A stretch of 59,369 nt of DNA, filler included, from Dugesia japonica (GCA_001938525.1; 4 parts of 4 records of this genome joined end to end with filler, not necessarily neighbours in it), one strand, 5' to 3'; shown: positions 3,570 through 36,122, numbered from the whole stretch's first letter. A program made the numbers and translations. Notes: a model not told the origin generated them from the letters alone.

Positions 3570-3914
3570 TTAATCAGCTACCAAACCACTCAGGCCAATC
3601 AAATCTCGCATTATTTCCTGTTCTTCTGCTTCGTCCGCCATCTCCGTAGCATTAGCCAGTATATAAGCATTAACTGTCTTCGGCGACGTTTCCGCGAGCT
3701 CCTCTTTGAGTCGCTTTACCTGTGCTATCAGGGACTCTCGAACCCTTTCTATCTGGCATTCTAGCGTTCGGAATTTGGTGTTCAACACTAACAACTGCAA
3801 TTGACCAATCTCGTTATCCGTCTCTAAGCTTTTTATTTCTCGGCGTTGCGTTTCCGTTTCCTTTTCTATCATTGTCTTTACTTCACTCCACTCAATCGAT
3901 GTAGGGCCAAACAT
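3570..3914 (-). CDS. Small coiled-coil protein with acidic C-terminus, probably element-encoded
   Basis: 114-aa ORF, GC-richer than flanks, heptad pattern (EIKSLETDNE...QVKRLKEELAE), acidic tail EMADEAEEQE. Confidence 0.5.
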   Translation of the reverse strand: MFGPTSIEWSEVKTMIEKETETQRREIKSLETDNEIGQLQLLVLNTKFRTLECQIERVRESLIAQVKRLKEELAETSPKTVNAYILANATEMADEAEEQEIMRDLIGLSGLVAD

Positions 3915-4445
3915 AACGAGGTCGTTTGAGATTTCGTCTACTTTTCGTCATCTAATAAATGCCAAACAAATAATATTGATTAAGATAAATATGAATAGGT
4001 TTGAAATATTAATGATATTTTTTAAGACGATTGCTTTGCATGAGGCCTCCGCTTTAATTTAATTAATTTCCTCCGCTTCATAACACGAACCAGGGAAGAT
4101 ATTCACTAGAAGCAAACATCTTTCCCCGTTATCGACAAGCTCTATGAAGAATTTCCTTAAAAATTTCCACTGCCAAAAGTGAAATGATTTAGAACTCTAA
4201 AATTTATGTCAAATTTATAAGTGATGTCTAGATTTTTTTACTTTGTGCACGAAAACGAAGCCACATAACCTTATCTCAGTATTGCATTCATAATATTCTA
4301 TCAATCACACTACAGAAAAATCTTTTACGATTAACATTCTGTTTGCATATGAAAACTCTCGATGCATTTAAAAAGAAAACTTCAACATTGATTAAAATTC
4401 AATATTAATATTTTCTTGTTTTAATATCGGATAATGCTTAAGTCA

Positions 4446-7138: not shown

Positions 7139-10100
7139 TATTGTATTATTAGTACTATTACACAATTCTGAATATTTAAACAACTTATTGTGTAAATAAA
7201 AGACATTATTTAAAATTATCTTAACATGCTAAAAAAAAGGACTATACTTCTAAAATTCAGAAAATAATTATCAAATTGATGTTCACAATGTAACATGACA
7301 GCAATAACCATCCCTAATGAAATGGTCGTTTTCAGACTCGGATGTCATAGCAGTAGAAATGTTCAATTACTAGCGTATTGTGACAAGCCAAGTGTCACAT
7401 TTGCGAACATTATTTTATTGTATTATTTTAAACTTGAAATATAAATATATTATTAAGCAGAGAAAGTGTAATATAATATAAAAAATATAATAATATAATA
7501 AAATAATAAAATAATATATAAAGTTATATTTTAATAATAACAAATAACAAGAAAAATAAAAAGTTGAAATTAGTGAATATAAAATAATTATCTAATATTC
7601 TAATAAATTGTAAATTAAAGTGTTTGTTCGTTTCCCCCAGAGTTTTTGTATGCAAATTGATAATCCTTTTCCATTTCTTCACTACTTATGAAAATTTTAA
7701 TTAATTTTTCAGATTCATATCAATTTGGCTACCAGAGATGTAGAATTATTTAAGAAAAGAAACGTCTGAGTGTATTCAAAATTATATTCAAATTTTTGTA
7801 ATTTCGTTTGCGAGGGAATCGAATTTATTAAGATTATTTTATTAAAATCAATATTTCATTTATTACTGACTGATTTCATAGACATTTCAGATATTCAATT
7901 AATAATATTAATTATTACTATGGTCCATATTCTACGATTCAATTAGTTGTTTATCTTCTAAATTGTAAATATTTCTAAATTTCTATCATATAAATTGTAA
8001 ATTTATATATAAAAGTAAAAAAGTTTTTTGATAAAATTTTAAAATAAAAAAAAACATTTTAACTCATTATTATGTATATTTTTTGTGAGAAATGAAATAA
8101 ATAATTACAATAAAACAAATTGGAATTAAATTTAAGAAAAACAATACATTTTAATATATAAATCGAAAGTATCACAATTCTTGCAGCGAATTCTTTAAGA
8201 TTTTTAAAATTATTGCCCGGATAAATTGTTCAGAAATGTTTATTATTTAGAACTTACCAATCCATTTCGTGATTTTTAATTGGGTTGTTTCAGTTAATTA
8301 TTCTAATCATTTGTAATTGTAAGTAGAAGGCAGTAATTGAAGCATTGTAATATAAAAATAATGGATTGAAATTCGTTGTTTTAATTTTCCGGAGTTAATT
8401 TAGTTTTTTTTTTAAACGAAATGTAAATTTTGAAATGAACTTTGTAATGTGTAGATTAATTTGGAAACATCGATATCGATTATATTTTATATAATTATAA
8501 TAAATTATTTTTTGGTAAATACTTTTGATACTTGTAAAGATATTTTACTAATTTGGTATAATTCAATTGTTGTTATAGTTTATAATTAACGAATTTTTGT
8601 AATTCACATTTTCTCGTTTAATCTGTAAATCTTTATTAAAAATTGTTAATCAATTTTGCATGAACATTATCATTTATTTATCTTTAAGTCATTTGCTTAG
8701 TTGTTAATAATTTCAGAATTATTGAATTTTACGATAAGTTTATTACTATCATGTTAGAAAATGGAATAAAAGTAAATCATGGGGTTTTTAACCCTAACAG
8801 TAATAATGTAAATTAATGATACAGTACAAAATCAATTTCTTTTTTAATTTTAAATTTACCTTTAAATCGACTGGGTGTCGGAACACTTATTACTTGGTAA
8901 TCCATTTGAGGCCAATCTATACAATTCACTTTCGATCATTTTAATTTTCGTAACTTTTCCAAATTACAAAAGATACTTTTCTTTGTTACTGGTAGTTTAA
9001 TGTGAAATTTCCATAAAGTAACTTCAGTTAAGTTTAACATACTTTTACTCTTCTGTTAAGTAGTGTATTTGTATTAATTGTTTGAATTTAGTTTACAACT
9101 TCCTTTAATACTGATTAAACAGCAACAAAGAAATATAGTCGATCTATTCACTGGAAAGTTTCTAGAAATATTTCTAAATAATAAAAATTTCAATCACATA
9201 ATGAAAAAAATAACGATTTTCCTAATTTTATAAATAGTAAATTCAAATTATTCCATTTTGTGTGATGCAGTTTTTTAAATATTATTTATAAGAGAGCGAT
9301 AATCAACAAAATTTTCTCAAACCGTAATAAAATTCAAAAATCTAATCTTATGTAAAATGGTATTATTAAACTTTGTATTAATCTGATAATTAATTAGATT
9401 GATTTAAAACTTTTTTTATTAAATTTAACTTTAACATAAGTCATAACAATTACTTATAGTCTATTAAACTTCTTGATTTCAAAAGATAGCTTAAATTTTT
9501 CATCTTTAATGATATTATAATTAATTTTTTACTTTAAATAATACTTTGACAATTAGAATATACTTAAGTTATTAAAATGAACATATATTGAAAAAGAATT
9601 CATTAATATAATTACTTTTTAACATTTCATTAATTTGTTATTCAAATTTACTGCTGAATATGACTTATTAATAAATATATTTTTTTTATTATTGAAACTT
9701 CAACTGTTTATTAAAAATTTACTACTTAGATTAAAAGTGCAAACTGTAACGTGTTATATTAAAAATTTAATACTTGTGTAGGATGTTTAGATACAATATT
9801 ACAATAATATTTATGGTTGCTTTGACTATGCGTAATTTTTTTCATGCATACATACATACATACGTATATTTACCCTATTGATTTAACATCGTATCATATT
9901 GAGTAATTCTTTTATGTACATACCATAATTTTAATTTACTATAAAAAAAAGTTAAGTCTCATGTTTTAATGAAATGGAATAATTTATTTTTGTTTAAATT
10001 AAAAGATTTTAATGGCTTTTTGTTTAAATGAAGTGTAATTTTTGTTTAAATTAATTAAAATCTATCGATTTCTTTTTCTATAATGTATATTTTTTCAGAG

Positions 10101-10140
10101 CAATATTAGCATTAGCAGCGCCGGGCAATATTAACAATAA

Positions 10141-11995
10141 TGTTGGGGTCTCACCTGAGTCGAGTGGAGGAATAACTTGGCTGAAGAAAAAACAGCCCTC
10201 AGGGGAACCCTTTCAAGAATTTAACCCACCGTCCCTGTGGTAGGTTTTCAGTTTATAGCGGTTGACCCCTTCTCTTAAGGCGGGGTACACACCTACAAAC
10301 CTTTATATTCGGGTTCATTATTTTCCCTTTCATTATTAACGAAAGAAAGAAATATTTGACGAAAATTCTTTTAAAGTAAATCCAGCGCCCCTGGATCTAA
10401 CCACTGGTCTGGTTCGGTCACCAAAAAGTTGAAGGCGGCGATGTCGTCATCGTCATCCCATTGTGTTATATTTGGATTGCCTATTCGTCGAGATAAAGCA
10501 GCGATATATTGTTTCAAGAACTCGACCTTCCTTAGCAATATCTGCTTGTTTTCGTTTTCTAGGGCCTTAGTTTGATTCACCAAATCGTTTTGTTTGCGAA
10601 TTATTAGATCTAATTTCTTGATAAATTAGGCTCTTTAAAGAGCCTTATCTGCTTTGCGCTTTAGATGGCGTTCCAACAGCAAACGGCGCATGATTCGGCG
10701 ACACCTTCGCAAGCTGGTGGGGAAAATAATTCGTGGCACTAAATAAGTAATCATTAATGCTGAAGTAACCACAGTGAAAGTTATTGAATTATTCAAGTGG
10801 GCACTAAGTTAACGCATAACTTATCAGAGACTAAGAATATGCAAATTTTATTTGTAAAAAATAAAAGCTTAGACACCACGATTGGCATTGGTCCGGGTTC
10901 CCTTNNNNNNNNNNNNNNNNNNNNNNNNNNNNNNNNNNNNNNNNNNNNNNNNNNNNNNNNNNNNNNNNNNNNNNNNCATGGCTGGACCGGATGACTTCGG
11001 CAAAAGACTCTACTTGCGCTTTCCACGTTCGTTCGGGTTAGTGGCTGATATGAGAGTCGATTTCTGTTGTGAACTGAGAATCCTTATCGTCAATTAATCT
11101 TTTTCAACCGGCTAGTTGTGGTTTTCAAATTCTATTAATAATTCGGTTTAATCAATTCAGCAATGGTTTTGATCTTACTAAATAGGTTTTAACAAATTGG
11201 ATAATCGTTCTTGGTTGAGTGTTAAACGCTGGTTGCGGTTTGCTTTTCCAAATTACTATTTATTGATAACAGAGAATAATGGTTTGTGAGCTCAAAATTG
11301 ATATTTTATTATCTAATTTTCTAAAATCTGGGGTTCCTTTTATACCATTTGTTTTACACCCAAACTTCTTCTAGATTTGTTGGTTATTTTTGGGTTAACG
11401 TTTTTCTGATTCTATTGGCTACTGAGTCACTTTTTTGAAATTTTTCTTAGAATTTGGTGCTGCCATTGGCAGCTATTTTTAAAGAGACATCTGACAATTG
11501 TGTCTTTGTTATATTTTTATTTCTAGTTTTTCTATTGGCTGGATCTTGGAAACCTTGCAGTACCCTTCTGGGAGGTGATATGTTTTTCTTCTTTGTGATT
11601 TCAATTGTATCTTGATGTTCTCTCTTCATTTTTTCTTGTCCGAGTTNNNNNNNNNNNNNNNNNNNNNNNNNNNNNNNGATAAAACAGATTTTTAACTAAT
11701 TTCGCTTCTTTTTTATTTTAAAATTAATTAATTTTCTTTCGTTAATTAATTATTTTCCATACCGCTTTTTTTTGTTGTTTATTATTAAATTAATAATTGT
11801 TCTTAATTTTCAACCGTAGGTTGCTTTTATGTTACCCAGTTCTTCATATTCATCTTGGATTTTAATTCGTTCTCTTCTAATGATGCTTACAGGTTTTATA
11901 TTTCATTATTGATAACTATAGTGGTTCTGCTACCCCTTTTCTGTTGATTTGGTTTTTCGGTCCTATTCCCGTTTAGTGGGTGTTTCACCCCAACA
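10141..11995 (-). mobile_element. Long solo LTR (1855 bp) with 4-bp ATAA TSD
   Basis: TGTTGGGGT...ACCCCAACA termini; ATAA duplicated (10137-10140, 11996-11999); the empty site is present in the inverted copy near 16615-16632; minus-strand CCAAT boxes, TATAAAAG (11337-11344), AATAAA (11305-11310). Confidence 0.85.
10371..10754 (-). pseudogene. LTR-internal basic/leucine-zipper-like ORF with acidic-aromatic tail, two premature TAA
   Basis: Single frame: MITYLVPRIIFPTSLRRCRRIMRRLLLERHLKRKADKAL*RA*FIKKLDLIIRKQNDLVNQTKALENENKQILLRKVEFLKQYIAALSRRIGNPNITQWDDDDDIAAFNFLVTEPDQWLDPGALDLL. Confidence 0.55.
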
Positions 11996-12094
11996 ATAAT
12001 ATTCGATGCTCCATGGACAGTATTAGCATTAAATATTCCCTGGGCAATATTGATATTTAATATTCCCAGCGCGATATTAATATTAGTTGCTCAG

Positions 12095-12235
12095 GTTTCA
12101 TACTAATATATGTTCAATGGCTCATACTATTAGTTGCTTTAGGGCTCATACTGTTGGTTGTTCAATGGCTCATACTATTCGTTGCTCAAGGGCTCATACT
12201 ATTGGATGCTCCCTGGCTCATACTATTAAATGCTC
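12095..12235. repeat. 24-bp minisatellite
   Basis: GGCTCATACT recurs at 12119, 12143, 12167, 12191 and 12215. Confidence 0.9.
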
Positions 12236-13459
12236 TGAAATTAGAAAATCCCTGAACAAATCTTTTAATTCTCCTGACATTTGATGTTCACAGTTTCATT
12301 AATATTAGCTTCTCACCAAAAGAAACGATTAATATCCCAAAGAAAACCATTTTCAATATTTATGTTTAAGTAAAATTGCTCTTCGTCTTAATAATAATAA
12401 TTAATGAAATCCGTATACTATTTGTATTCTAAGTAAACTTATTATTAATAATATTATTAAAATTATTTTCATACATTGTTTCAATAACAGTTTTGTTTGA
12501 ATTTCTTACCATTACATTACATCATTCGACATGTACAGTCTGACGGAACGAATCCACCAAGGTCCGTTAGCATCCAATCGAGTCAGTTCATAATTTAACT
12601 TACCGATCAGCTTGTGTAGTTTGAACTAGACTAAGCTCGATTAAAGCATGTGCATCTCTGGTTCACATCCGGTTTCAAATATACATTGCTACAATGGTAT
12701 AACCATTATAAGATAAAACTGTTAGTCGTCATCGCCAATATTTGGCTAGACTCATATCTGCAAAATGGTAAAGAATTAAAAGTCAACTGTTATTGAATAA
12801 ATCTTTAAATTAAATCATTTAAGAAAAGCATTACTAAAAAAGTCATTAAGTTAAATCATTTAAGAAATAACATTACTATTTAAATAAAATTTAATCCTTA
12901 CTTATTGTCAAAGTTCACAGTAATGATTATAAATCGTAATAACTTACCATATCTCCAATAACTTTAATCAAATAATTAAGAATTTATAACGTTTACAATT
13001 ATCATCTGAAAATCAATTTATTAACTTAAAAGAAATTATTAATTTAAAATTGTTAACTTTAAATAAAATCATTACGAAATTTATTACCGTTTAATTTAAA
13101 TAAAATAAATCCTTACTTATTTTCATAACTTATCAAATTTTATAATAATATTGATCACAATAAATTTTCATATTTTATGTATTACAAATCATAATAGGTT
13201 TTCCTAAATAATCTAAAATAAAATTAATAATATAGCAAATTAAATACAAAATCTTACTTGATATTGTTAAAATGGCGAAATAATGATGAAATAATATGAA
13301 ATTATTCCATTCAAGTCATATTTAATTAATATGTTTAAACAAAATTATTTAATAATAAATAATTGTTTGACATATTTTAATTAATATAATTTAACAAAAA
13401 ATCAATTTTAAAAAACATTAATTCTGTATGATCAATTTAAATTTTAATTTATATTAATT

Positions 13460-15860: not shown

Positions 15861-16869
15861 AAATTTGATTATATTTGTATAATAGTATAAAATTTATATG
15901 TCTTTATGATAATATCATTATAAAATCCTAAAAGAACTATAGAAAGTCCTTAAATCATATACTCAAAGACTTATTATTTCAATGATATAAGATATTCCCC
16001 GAACAATATAAATGTTGAATTTCCTCTAGGGCAATATTAATATTAATAGTAATGTTAACATCCCCTGGACAATTTTAATGTTAATGTTAATATCCCTTGG
16101 ATAATATTAATGTTAACGTTAACATCCACTGGGCAATATTAATATTAATATTATCGTTAGAATCCACCTGGTAATATTAATGTTAATATCTTCTGGACAA
16201 TATTTGGATCATGATGTTCTCAAATGATGTTAGATATAATGAGAGTTAGTCAGTTACAGTGTGATAAAGCCAGTTGAGAGTGATAGAAAACTTATTGTGT
16301 GTATGATAATTTTATTGAAGAGAAAGATTTCCAGTGTGAAGTGGAAGAGTACCAGTAGAGAGTGTAGAATATCAATAGAGAGTAGGAGAAGACCAGCTGA
16401 TAGTGAGTGAATACCGATGAATAGAGGGAGAAAACCAGTGTATAGTGTCAGAAAACTTGTAGAGAGTATGTGTATACTAGTTGAAGCAATTAGTAGTATG
16501 AGGCATGATCATATATTAGTATGAAACCTGAGCAACTAATATTAATAGCGCCCTGGGAATATTAAATATCAATTTAGCCCAGGGAATATTTAATGTTAAC
16601 ATTGTCCGGGGAGCATCGAATATTATTGTTAATATTGCCCGGCGCTGCTAATGTTAATATTGCTCTGTAAAAATATACATTAAAAAAAAGAAATCGTTAA
16701 TTTTACTTTAAAGAAAAATTTCACTTCATTTAAACAAAAAGCCATTTAAATCTTTTAATTTAAACAAAAATAAACTATTTTATCTCATTAAAACTAATAA
16801 TAAATAATTTTAAACAAGAAAACATTAAACAAATACATCAATTAAAACAAAGGTTTGAATTACGTAACC

Positions 16870-30326: not shown

Positions 30327-36122
<5,796 letters not shown>

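What the first reader, a model, noticed from the sequence alone, without database searches (positions are those of the whole stretch)
10371..10754. A solo LTR that carries its own bZIP-like/acidic ORF
Seen: inside the 1855-bp LTR, on the same strand as and ~0.6 kb downstream of its TATA box, a 127-codon frame (only two TAA, each one C>T from Gln) encodes an Arg-rich stretch (LRRCRRIMRRLLLERHLKRK), a zipper with Asn in the core (LVNQTKALENENKQILLRKVEFLKQYIAAL) and an acidic W/F/L tail (WDDDDDIAAFNF..DQWLD..LDLL) resembling an activation domain. Established: LTR-associated regulators exist in retroviruses (MMTV sag, HTLV-1 HBZ). Inference: a retrotransposon-encoded transactivator or zipper decoy spread by solo LTRs. 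The canonical bZIP N-x7-R spacing is not evident.
Basis: partly seen in the sequence, partly recalled or inferred. Interest (0 to 1): 0.7.

Follow-up and report, generated by a model that had tools for sequence, protein, structure and literature searches.

The report
Spliced gene cassette inside retrotransposon LTR
This is a broken copy of a real small gene that sits with three others inside the long terminal repeat of a giant virus-like jumping gene; its start codon is likely made by splicing, and its protein, a predicted long helix with an acidic tail, is not a bZIP but likely helps control the element.

Summary
The frame is real (minus strand) but this copy is dead. It lies in an internally deleted solo LTR (10141-11995) of a Burro-like giant Ty3/gypsy element. 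Full LTRs (3.9-4.8 kb) carry four same-strand ORFs downstream of the TATA box; this is the last. Across 99 copies it is under strong purifying selection (pN 0.15, pS 0.74); changes private to one copy are neutral, so selection acts on the replicating element, not on inserted LTRs. Eight contigs hold LTR copies with exactly this intron removed. No RNA read showed the junction. The protein is one predicted 83-residue helix (basic, then coiled coil) plus an acidic tail; bZIP tests fail and no homologue was found. Function is inferred: likely a regulator of the element's own expression. The scan noted this LTR gene array before on other DNA (e1-9268182); the splicing evidence was not in the lines shown to me.

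The parts
10141..11995 (-). Internally deleted solo LTR of a Burro-like giant Ty3/gypsy element
   Evidence: Termini and empty site; full-length relatives 3.9-4.8 kb; same ends joined to a primer-binding site and to a purine tract elsewhere
10137..10140 (.). Target-site duplication, left copy (ATAA)
11996..11999 (.). Target-site duplication, right copy (ATAA)
11338..11344 (-). TATA-like motif about 650 nt inside the LTR, kept across subfamilies
   Evidence: promoter function inferred
11037..11314 (-). Remnant of the ATG-poor leader exon; minor donor at 11179/11178
   Evidence: the matching donor in L086 is used in a 47-nt GT..AG joint in contigs of two runs
11034..11036 (-). Deletion junction that removed the main splice donor, ORF D, ORF A and the first half of ORF B
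   Evidence: comparison with L051 and full LTRs
10869..11033 (-). 3' remnant of ORF B (second coiled-coil gene), spans an assembly gap
10739..10759 (-).
   Evidence: AG in 94 of 97 contexts; YTRAY in 81 of 87, 50 of them 17 nt above the AG
10371..10738 (-). ORF C coding exon (the finding), pseudogenised in this copy
10653..10712 (-). Basic helical stretch (family median net charge +8 over residues 7-33)
10626..10645 (-). Copy-specific lesion: 18-nt palindrome with stops at 10637-10635 and 10628-10626
   Evidence: 1 of 99 copies
10494..10583 (-). Coiled-coil (zipper-like) stretch, part of one continuous predicted helix
   Evidence: 7-residue gap in 2 of 99 copies
10374..10460 (-). Acidic/aromatic tail, predicted mostly disordered (median net charge -8)
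   Evidence: pN 0.17 vs pS 0.61
10141..10370 (-). LTR 3' end (inferred end of R plus U5); the poly(A) signal that follows ORF C in relatives is missing here
   Evidence: AWTAAA in 82 of 89 copies; absent in this copy

Best explanation
The ORF is a decayed copy of the last of four accessory genes carried inside the long LTR of a giant env-bearing Ty3/gypsy retrotransposon; it is likely expressed from the LTR's own promoter as a spliced mRNA whose ATG is formed at the splice junction, and its predicted basic-helix/coiled-coil/acidic-tail protein likely acts as a nuclear regulator of the element's own transcription. Shown: LTR identity, four-ORF order (D, A, B, C), purifying selection in the replicating lineage, conserved donor and acceptors, and genomic LTR copies lacking exactly the intron. 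Inferred: transcription starts below the TATA motif, so that the cassette lies in a roughly 3.4-kb R region; one leader exon splices to any of the four ORFs, each followed by a poly(A)-type signal; an intact solo LTR would therefore be a self-contained four-gene transcription unit. Inferred and untested: oligomerisation through the coiled coil, tethering through the basic helix, coactivator recruitment through the tail. Odds by step: real gene 0.95; splice-made start 0.9; transcription-regulator role about 0.45.
For: Selection: pN 0.151, pS 0.736, codon-position diversity 0.24/0.13/0.48 in 99 copies, other frames give no such signal except the mirror frame; in 38 copies found by DNA or pattern search, dN/dS 0.11-0.26 for pairs with pS 0.1-0.7, shared changes N/S 0.56 versus private 3.45 and neutral 3.54. 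ORFs A and B, not chosen by their own protein score, show the same. Splicing: acceptor AG 94 of 97 and AG|TG 89 of 97; same AG|TG in ORF B (by eye); A before the donor GT in 25 of 28; 6 ATG in 24 leaders against 119 from shuffles; intron-less copies for C on 8 contigs, B on 6, A on 3, two C copies being whole 1.55-1.63-kb solo LTRs with 4-bp duplications; junctions coincide with the donor of unspliced relatives for L022, L247, L232 and, within one base of an A run, L228; no leader joins to two control points inside ORF C. Parent: 482 exact LTR-end/primer-site junctions, control 0; fusion glycoprotein, protease, RT start, integrase, BIR-RING, purine tract, LTR in order on one contig. Protein: helix 7-89 at high pLDDT, tail low; charge +8/+6/-8.
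Against: No RNA read or contig showed the leader-to-ORF C junction: 246 raw reads from 4 runs, almost all partial and under 90% alike, no joints; contigs of 4 runs of guessed RNA status, 15 of 38 joints displayed, the only GT..AG one being a 47-nt intron at a minor donor. No start site or poly(A) site was mapped, so the U3/R/U5 assignment is inferred. Translation is not shown. No homologue or fold match gives a function. Basic helix plus coiled coil plus acidic tail fits several other roles. The branch motif is much less regular for ORF B (27 of 65). Only 13 of 38 DNA-selected copies have an unbroken exon.
Confidence: 0.5

Rival explanations
1. Same gene and splicing, but the protein works like Rev/Rex/Rem or an antiterminator: it binds the element's RNA through the Arg-rich helix and lets full-length RNA escape the cassette's splice sites and poly(A) signals.
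For: If the cassette is in R, genomic RNA must pass four acceptors and several poly(A)-type signals; intron-less LTRs are rare (a few dozen at most among thousands of candidates), so replication mostly uses unspliced RNA. MMTV Rem does this job (PMC3026287, passages).
Against: No clear export signal was identified; no structured RNA element found by Rfam in 3 loci; the acidic aromatic tail fits an activation domain at least as well (inference).
Confidence: 0.2
2. Same gene, but it is a host-modulating or anti-silencing factor (for example against PIWI-linked chromatin silencing), with the tail as a short protein-binding motif.
For: The parent carries other host-modulating genes (BIR-RING); BURRO elements are repressed by nuclear PIWI in planarians (PMC8532177, passages); tail residues are conserved.
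Against: No likeness to any known factor; strong conservation across subfamilies rather than rapid change.
Confidence: 0.13
3. Structural or transport adaptor: ORF C and ORF B coiled coils form a scaffold that moves particles or RNA along the cytoskeleton.
For: Pfam matches are only generic coiled-coil families below cut-off; ORF B ends in an invariant K-G-x-Q-T, a dynein-light-chain-type motif by recall.
Against: B and C are unrelated in sequence; ORF C's basic helix and acidic tail are not needed for this; B-C binding was not examined.
Confidence: 0.08
4. A degenerate bZIP or zipper decoy, like HTLV-1 HBZ, that pairs with host bZIP or MiT/TFE factors.
For: Leu/Asn zipper-like stretch; a weak match to the TFEB zipper (E 0.24); best host bZIP score 8.3 bits.
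Against: Full signature in 0 of 55; no bZIP family among Pfam matches shown; a genome-wide bZIP_1 search returned 12 matches, the 10 translated all with N-x7-R/K and none of this family; profile-profile probability 0.15%; gene is sense, not antisense.
Confidence: 0.06
5. A chance frame in non-coding LTR DNA.
For: This copy is broken and no homologue exists in the databases searched.
Against: Codon-level constraint, conserved start and stop positions, dedicated splice and poly(A)-type signals.
Confidence: 0.02

Closest known systems
Burro / GYPSM1 giant Ty3/gypsy elements of planarians (PMC6431247, section 7 read; Grohme et al. 2018 not held)
   Same: Mononegavirus-type fusion glycoprotein upstream of protease, RT, integrase; BIR domain; extra ORFs; very many copies.
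   Different: The section read describes no genes inside the LTRs. Identity with Burro1-4 could not be compared; gag, BCL2, MATH and ankyrin parts were not located here; host taxon not tested.
MMTV Sag (PMC3026287, passages read)
   Same: [quoted passage not shown]
   Different: One ORF in a 1.3-kb LTR, donor outside that LTR copy (5' leader or env); here four ORFs lie downstream of the TATA motif with donor and acceptors inside one LTR, and two ORFs lack their own ATG. No sequence likeness found.
MDG1-group sORF1/sORF2 of Drosophila Ty3/gypsy elements (bioRxiv 10.1101/2025.03.14.642691, passages read)
   Same: Small selected accessory ORFs at the 5' end of a gypsy element; a short transcript ends at an early poly(A) site; sORF1 is nuclear.
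   Different: [quoted passage not shown]
HTLV-1 HBZ (recalled; PMC10186651 seen as search listing only)
   Same: Retroelement-encoded helical regulator linked to an LTR.
   Different: HBZ is antisense and a true bZIP; ORF C is sense and fails the bZIP tests.
MiT/TFE leucine zipper (TFEB, PDB 7y62)
   Same: Gapless 34-residue resemblance in the zipper.
   Different: E 0.24; no HLH Pfam match among those shown; treated as generic coiled-coil likeness.

Membership tests
Solo LTR of a Ty3/gypsy element | TG...CA ends with short target duplication | tested here: met
   ATAA here; 4-bp duplication in 10 of 11 end pairs after dropping 4 of 15 rows that were fuzzy false ends
Solo LTR of a Ty3/gypsy element | Same ends occur beside a primer-binding site and a polypurine tract | tested here: met
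   482 exact junctions, control 0; purine-rich tract before the LTR in 9 loci. The tRNA (Pro) is named from recall only
Solo LTR of a Ty3/gypsy element | Internal region with PR-RT-IN order | tested here: met
   C640044: protease, RT start (by eye), integrase (Pfam), then LTR
Burro/GYPSM1 | Mononegavirus-type fusion protein upstream of protease | tested here: met
   PF24664 E 4e-21 upstream of the protease on C640044
Burro/GYPSM1 | BIR domain | tested here: met
   PF00653 E 5e-15 and 1e-15, with RING
Burro/GYPSM1 | Total length over 30 kb; gag, BCL2, MATH, ankyrin domains | tested here: inconclusive
   About 15 kb of decayed internal region seen on one contig; assembly too fragmented for the rest
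Burro/GYPSM1 | Sequence identity to Burro1-4; planarian host | not testable with these tools
   Reference sequences not held; host not identified by a test
bZIP | Basic signature N-x7-R/K at fixed distance from the zipper | tested here: not met
   0 of 55 full signature; 16 of 55 have N-x7-R/K somewhere in the first 70 residues, not in the basic stretch
bZIP | Profile match to bZIP families or host bZIPs | tested here: not met
bZIP | Heptad leucine zipper | tested here: inconclusive
   Continuous helix, periodicity 3.5-3.7, one-heptad gap in 2 of 99 copies, but a register skip
bZIP | Dimerisation and DNA binding | not tested
Acidic activation domain | Acidic, aromatic/leucine-rich, disordered tail | tested here: met
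Acidic activation domain | Activates a reporter when tethered | not testable with these tools
   needs a bench assay
MMTV Sag-type LTR gene | ORF inside the LTR behind a splice acceptor | tested here: met
MMTV Sag-type LTR gene | ORF upstream of the LTR's main promoter (U3; recalled) | tested here: not met
   ORFs lie downstream of the conserved TATA motif; no second conserved TATA near the 3' end (TATAAA at about -160 in 24 of 87). Start site not mapped
HBZ-type antisense gene | Antisense to the element (recalled) | tested here: not met
   Same strand as primer site, pol and TATA

The most novel reading that the evidence does not exclude
The LTR is itself a four-gene operon: promoter, one leader exon, four alternative last exons with their own poly(A) signals, in a multi-kilobase R region, with start codons assembled by splicing. 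Thousands of solo LTRs would then each be autonomous sources of regulatory proteins acting in trans on the element and the host, a retrotransposon equivalent of a complex retrovirus's regulatory region moved wholly into the LTR.
Probability: 0.45. Interest if true: 0.82.

Novelty: new variant of a known kind. Interest (0 to 1): 0.68.

Why it matters
LTRs are treated as non-coding control DNA and solo LTRs as spent remnants. Here an LTR carries four selected protein genes with their own splicing programme, and the genome has preserved reverse-transcribed spliced forms that map the junctions without RNA data. It shows complex-retrovirus-style regulation in an invertebrate Ty3/gypsy lineage, gives four orphan proteins to test, and poses a sharp question: how does full-length RNA get past the splice and poly(A) sites in its own first kilobases? 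If the host is a planarian, as the Burro layout suggests, these proteins are candidates for effects seen when PIWI silencing fails.

Tried and rejected
DNA-transposon reading (Ginger-like, from the TGT ends and 4-bp duplication): dropped after the primer-site and purine-tract junctions were found; a first search with too short a spacer found none. First donor guess (about 170 nt below the TATA motif): not conserved across subfamilies; the conserved donor is about 340 nt below it. Donor inside ORF D: none evident. Leader spliced to the U5 region or to the first internal ORF: 2 hits, both explained otherwise, and 0 hits. Of the 11 and 15 hits were point variants at the acceptor, not spliced copies; of 20 hits, 10 were unrelated. 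ORF D was first scored out of frame; its shifted-frame row (0.17) is the true one. Jukes-Cantor dN/dS near saturation (0.03-0.06) is unstable and biased by protein-score selection, so binned DNA-selected values are used. Homologue searches: none; one hit among 1.84 billion representatives was an additive match to a bacterial DUF7507 repeat protein. Fold searches of the helix gave nothing at E<=0.001. ORF A model too poor to use (pLDDT 43). Complex prediction and the protein atlas gave no result (not available). No RNA holder on record as RNA was listed; this is no evidence on expression. The primer tRNA was not identified by a tool (no tRNA gene in the loci). Literature: searches showed no paper on genes inside Burro LTRs; the primary Burro paper and Repbase entry could not be read, and their figures or supplements may annotate LTR ORFs.

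Full report
Observation. The plus strand at 10371-10754 is closed; the minus strand gives 127 codons with two internal stops and the basic, zipper-like and acidic blocks described. The frame lies in an 1855-bp element, 10141-11995, with TGTTGGGG...CCCCAACA ends and an ATAA duplication; a second copy of the host repeat at 16794-16484 shows the empty site. The stops are not simple point changes: they sit in and beside an 18-nt palindrome where this copy is five codons shorter than relatives, a lesion found in 1 of 99 copies.

What the element is. The genome (854 Mb, 648,594 contigs) holds thousands of relatives: 2,989 first-look candidates by DNA (40 scored) and 12,814 by protein (150 scored). 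Copies with both ends are 3.9-4.8 kb when complete and 1.0-3.3 kb when deleted; 10 of 11 end pairs have a 4-bp duplication (4 of 15 rows dropped as fuzzy false ends). The 3' end is joined to a fixed primer-site-like sequence at 482 places, control 0 (tRNA-Pro by recall only), and the 5' end follows a purine-rich tract in 9 loci. One contig carries, in order, a mononegavirus-type fusion glycoprotein (PF24664, E 4e-21), protease, RT start, integrase, further ORFs, BIR-RING, the purine tract and the LTR. This is the layout given for Burro/GYPSM1 giant gypsy elements of planarians (PMC6431247, section 7 read in full). The host was not identified by a test; a planarian is likely from this layout.

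Four genes in the LTR. Complete LTRs carry four same-strand ORFs in their 3' half: D (about 60 aa), A (about 140), B (about 120) and C, the finding. An all-against-all comparison of long copies found these four in 14-16 other copies each; other recurring frames were short, broken, or shadows of conserved DNA. An earlier scan note (e1-9268182) reports five or six genes with two D-like paralogues in a 4.4-kb element; I found one D per LTR in the copies examined, so subfamilies may differ.

Selection. In 99 distinct copies of C, pN is 0.151 and pS 0.736, with diversity 0.24, 0.13, 0.48 at the three codon positions; no frameshift inside the exon is shared between copies. Because many copies were picked by protein score, I repeated this on 38 copies found by DNA or pattern search: dN/dS is 0.61 for the 11 closest pairs and 0.11-0.26 for pairs with pS 0.1-0.7; changes private to one copy have N/S 3.45 (neutral 3.54) and shared changes 0.56. 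All regions, the tail included, are constrained. Selection therefore acted while the element replicated; inserted copies decay, and only 13 of 38 keep an unbroken exon. A and B show the same pattern.

The start codon is made by splicing. Just after them stands AG in 94 of 97 contexts, AG|TG in 89, with a branch-type motif in 81 of 87, 50 at exactly 17 nt (chance rate not computed). ORF B begins the same way; A and D have their own ATG a few bases after an AG (by eye). About 340 nt below the conserved TATA motif lies a donor preceded by A in 25 of 28 cases; the three exceptions are a decayed copy, a deleted copy and a non-member. The leader above it holds 6 ATGs in 24 copies against 119 from shuffles. 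Joining the leader's last A to TG gives ATG. The genome holds such joined copies: C on 8 contigs, B on 6, A on 3 (two pairs are 96-97% alike and may be single events). L258 and L265 are whole solo LTRs of 1.55 and 1.63 kb with 4-bp duplications, L250 one of 2.14 kb. Where an unspliced relative could be aligned, the join falls on its donor (L022, L247, L232; L228 within one base of an A run). Two control patterns for joins inside ORF C gave no true hit. Since RNA spliced from one LTR to the other would lose primer site and purine tract, these copies imply splicing within one LTR of a replicating RNA (inference). A poly(A)-type hexamer follows C in 82 of 89 copies and is visible after A and B (by eye). 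No second conserved TATA lies near the 3' end, so the simplest map is U3 about 0.7 kb, R about 3.4 kb holding the cassette, U5 about 0.2 kb (inferred).

This copy. The deletion junction at 11034-11036 removed the main donor, D, A and half of B; the frame is broken; the poly(A) hexamer is gone. It is a pseudogene.

RNA. No holder on record as RNA was listed. Four raw-read runs laid on one full LTR gave 246 reads, nearly all partial and under 90% alike, many of them poly(A) artefacts, and no joints. Contigs from four runs of guessed RNA status cover all four ORFs; of 38 joints 15 were shown, and the only GT..AG one is a 47-nt intron at a minor donor. The leader-to-C junction was not seen in RNA. 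Expression is neither shown nor excluded.

The protein. AlphaFold2 on 55 unaltered copies gives one helix, residues 7-89, at high confidence, then a low-confidence tail with a short terminal helix (mean pLDDT 80, pTM 0.44). Median net charge is +8, +6, -8 along the chain, hydrophobic periodicity 3.5-3.7, and 2 of 99 copies lack exactly seven residues of the zipper. It is not a bZIP: full signature 0 of 55; only generic coiled-coil Pfam families below cut-off; the genome-wide bZIP_1 search returned 12 host matches and none of this family, and 10 translated host bZIPs scored at most 8.3 bits against the family profile. A TFEB zipper match at E 0.24 is treated as generic. No homologue was found in 5.8 billion proteins (length-limited) or 1.84 billion representatives (one additive false hit), and no fold match.

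Mechanism. Shown: LTR identity, gene order, selection, splice signals, intron-less copies. Inferred: start site, alternative last exons, translation. For function I commit to a nuclear regulator of the element's own transcription (about 0.45), because a basic helix, an oligomerising coil and a conserved acidic aromatic tail are the parts of a tethered activator, and a short spliced mRNA from the LTR promoter is how complex retroviruses make early regulators (established knowledge, recalled). The main rival is a Rev/Rem-like RNA regulator, which the architecture itself seems to need.

Comparison and novelty. LTR-borne or LTR-adjacent accessory genes are known: MMTV Sag lies in a 1.3-kb LTR behind a splice acceptor (PMC3026287, passages); MDG1-group sORFs lie between LTR and gag, unspliced, with an early poly(A) site and a nuclear sORF1 (bioRxiv 10.1101/2025.03.14.642691, passages). 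A four-gene spliced cassette downstream of the promoter inside the LTR, with splice-made ATGs, did not appear in nine searches (listings seen) or in passages of PMC8532177, PMC13524379, PMC11410931, PMC13238120 and bioRxiv 10.64898/2025.12.11.693146. The primary Burro paper and the Repbase entry were not readable and may annotate these ORFs; no supplements were read. The scan itself noted the array earlier on other DNA. Verdict: new variant of a known kind; interest 0.68.

Noticed in passing
window 9963-10144, 11992-12139 and 16484-16794: The LTR sits inside a host repeat whose uninterrupted copy lies inverted 4.5 kb away, giving a clean empty site. The repeat itself was not classified.
   Followed up: partly
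L126:4070-4432 and other ORF B copies: ORF B: about 120-aa coiled-coil protein ending in an invariant K-G-x-Q-T, like a dynein-light-chain-binding motif (recalled); no Pfam family at E<=0.05.
   Followed up: partly
L086:3394-3576 and about 40 other loci: ORF D: 60-aa micro-protein with a basic N-terminal half and a highly conserved acidic motif; two sequence subtypes. It draws most RNA reads.
   Followed up: partly
L116:316-741 and other ORF A copies: ORF A: about 140 aa with conserved W/R/P residues, three length variants; no Pfam match, AlphaFold model unusable.
   Followed up: partly
window 4641 and 26754: Two more ends beginning TGTTGGGGTGAAACACC that do not align further with this LTR family: probably related LTR families. 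One such end abuts this family's end tail-to-tail in L039.
   Followed up: no
L201, L210, L212, L213, L217, L226, L281, L283, about 260-330 nt after the primer site: The first internal ORF also starts just after a pyrimidine tract and AG, followed by short purine-rich tandem repeats; its donor is unknown.
   Followed up: partly
L277:420-6815, L279:867-1910: Several further unnamed ORFs between integrase and the 3' LTR, including long coiled-coil ORFs on either side of the BIR-RING gene.
   Followed up: no
LTR flanks in L003, L010, L014, L037, L051, L108, L112, L114, L169, L172: Many insertions lie in (TAA)n microsatellites; enrichment not tested.
   Followed up: no
P0002-P0012: Polyproteins from public assemblies 50-55% identical in the integrase, one with ankyrin repeats as described for GYPSM1: likely relatives whose LTRs could be checked for the cassette.
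   Followed up: no
L082:5775-9450 and L084 flank: Neighbouring decayed ORFs with C2H2 fingers and DNA-polymerase-B-like text by eye, probably Maverick/Polinton remnants.
   Followed up: no
window 35100-35830: 21-nt repeats encoding YSPTSP-type heptads, the RNA polymerase II large-subunit tail.
   Followed up: no
window 3570-3947 (-) and 12078-12250: A 125-aa coiled-coil-like frame without a family match above cut-off, and a 24-nt tandem repeat in the host repeat beside the LTR.
   Followed up: no
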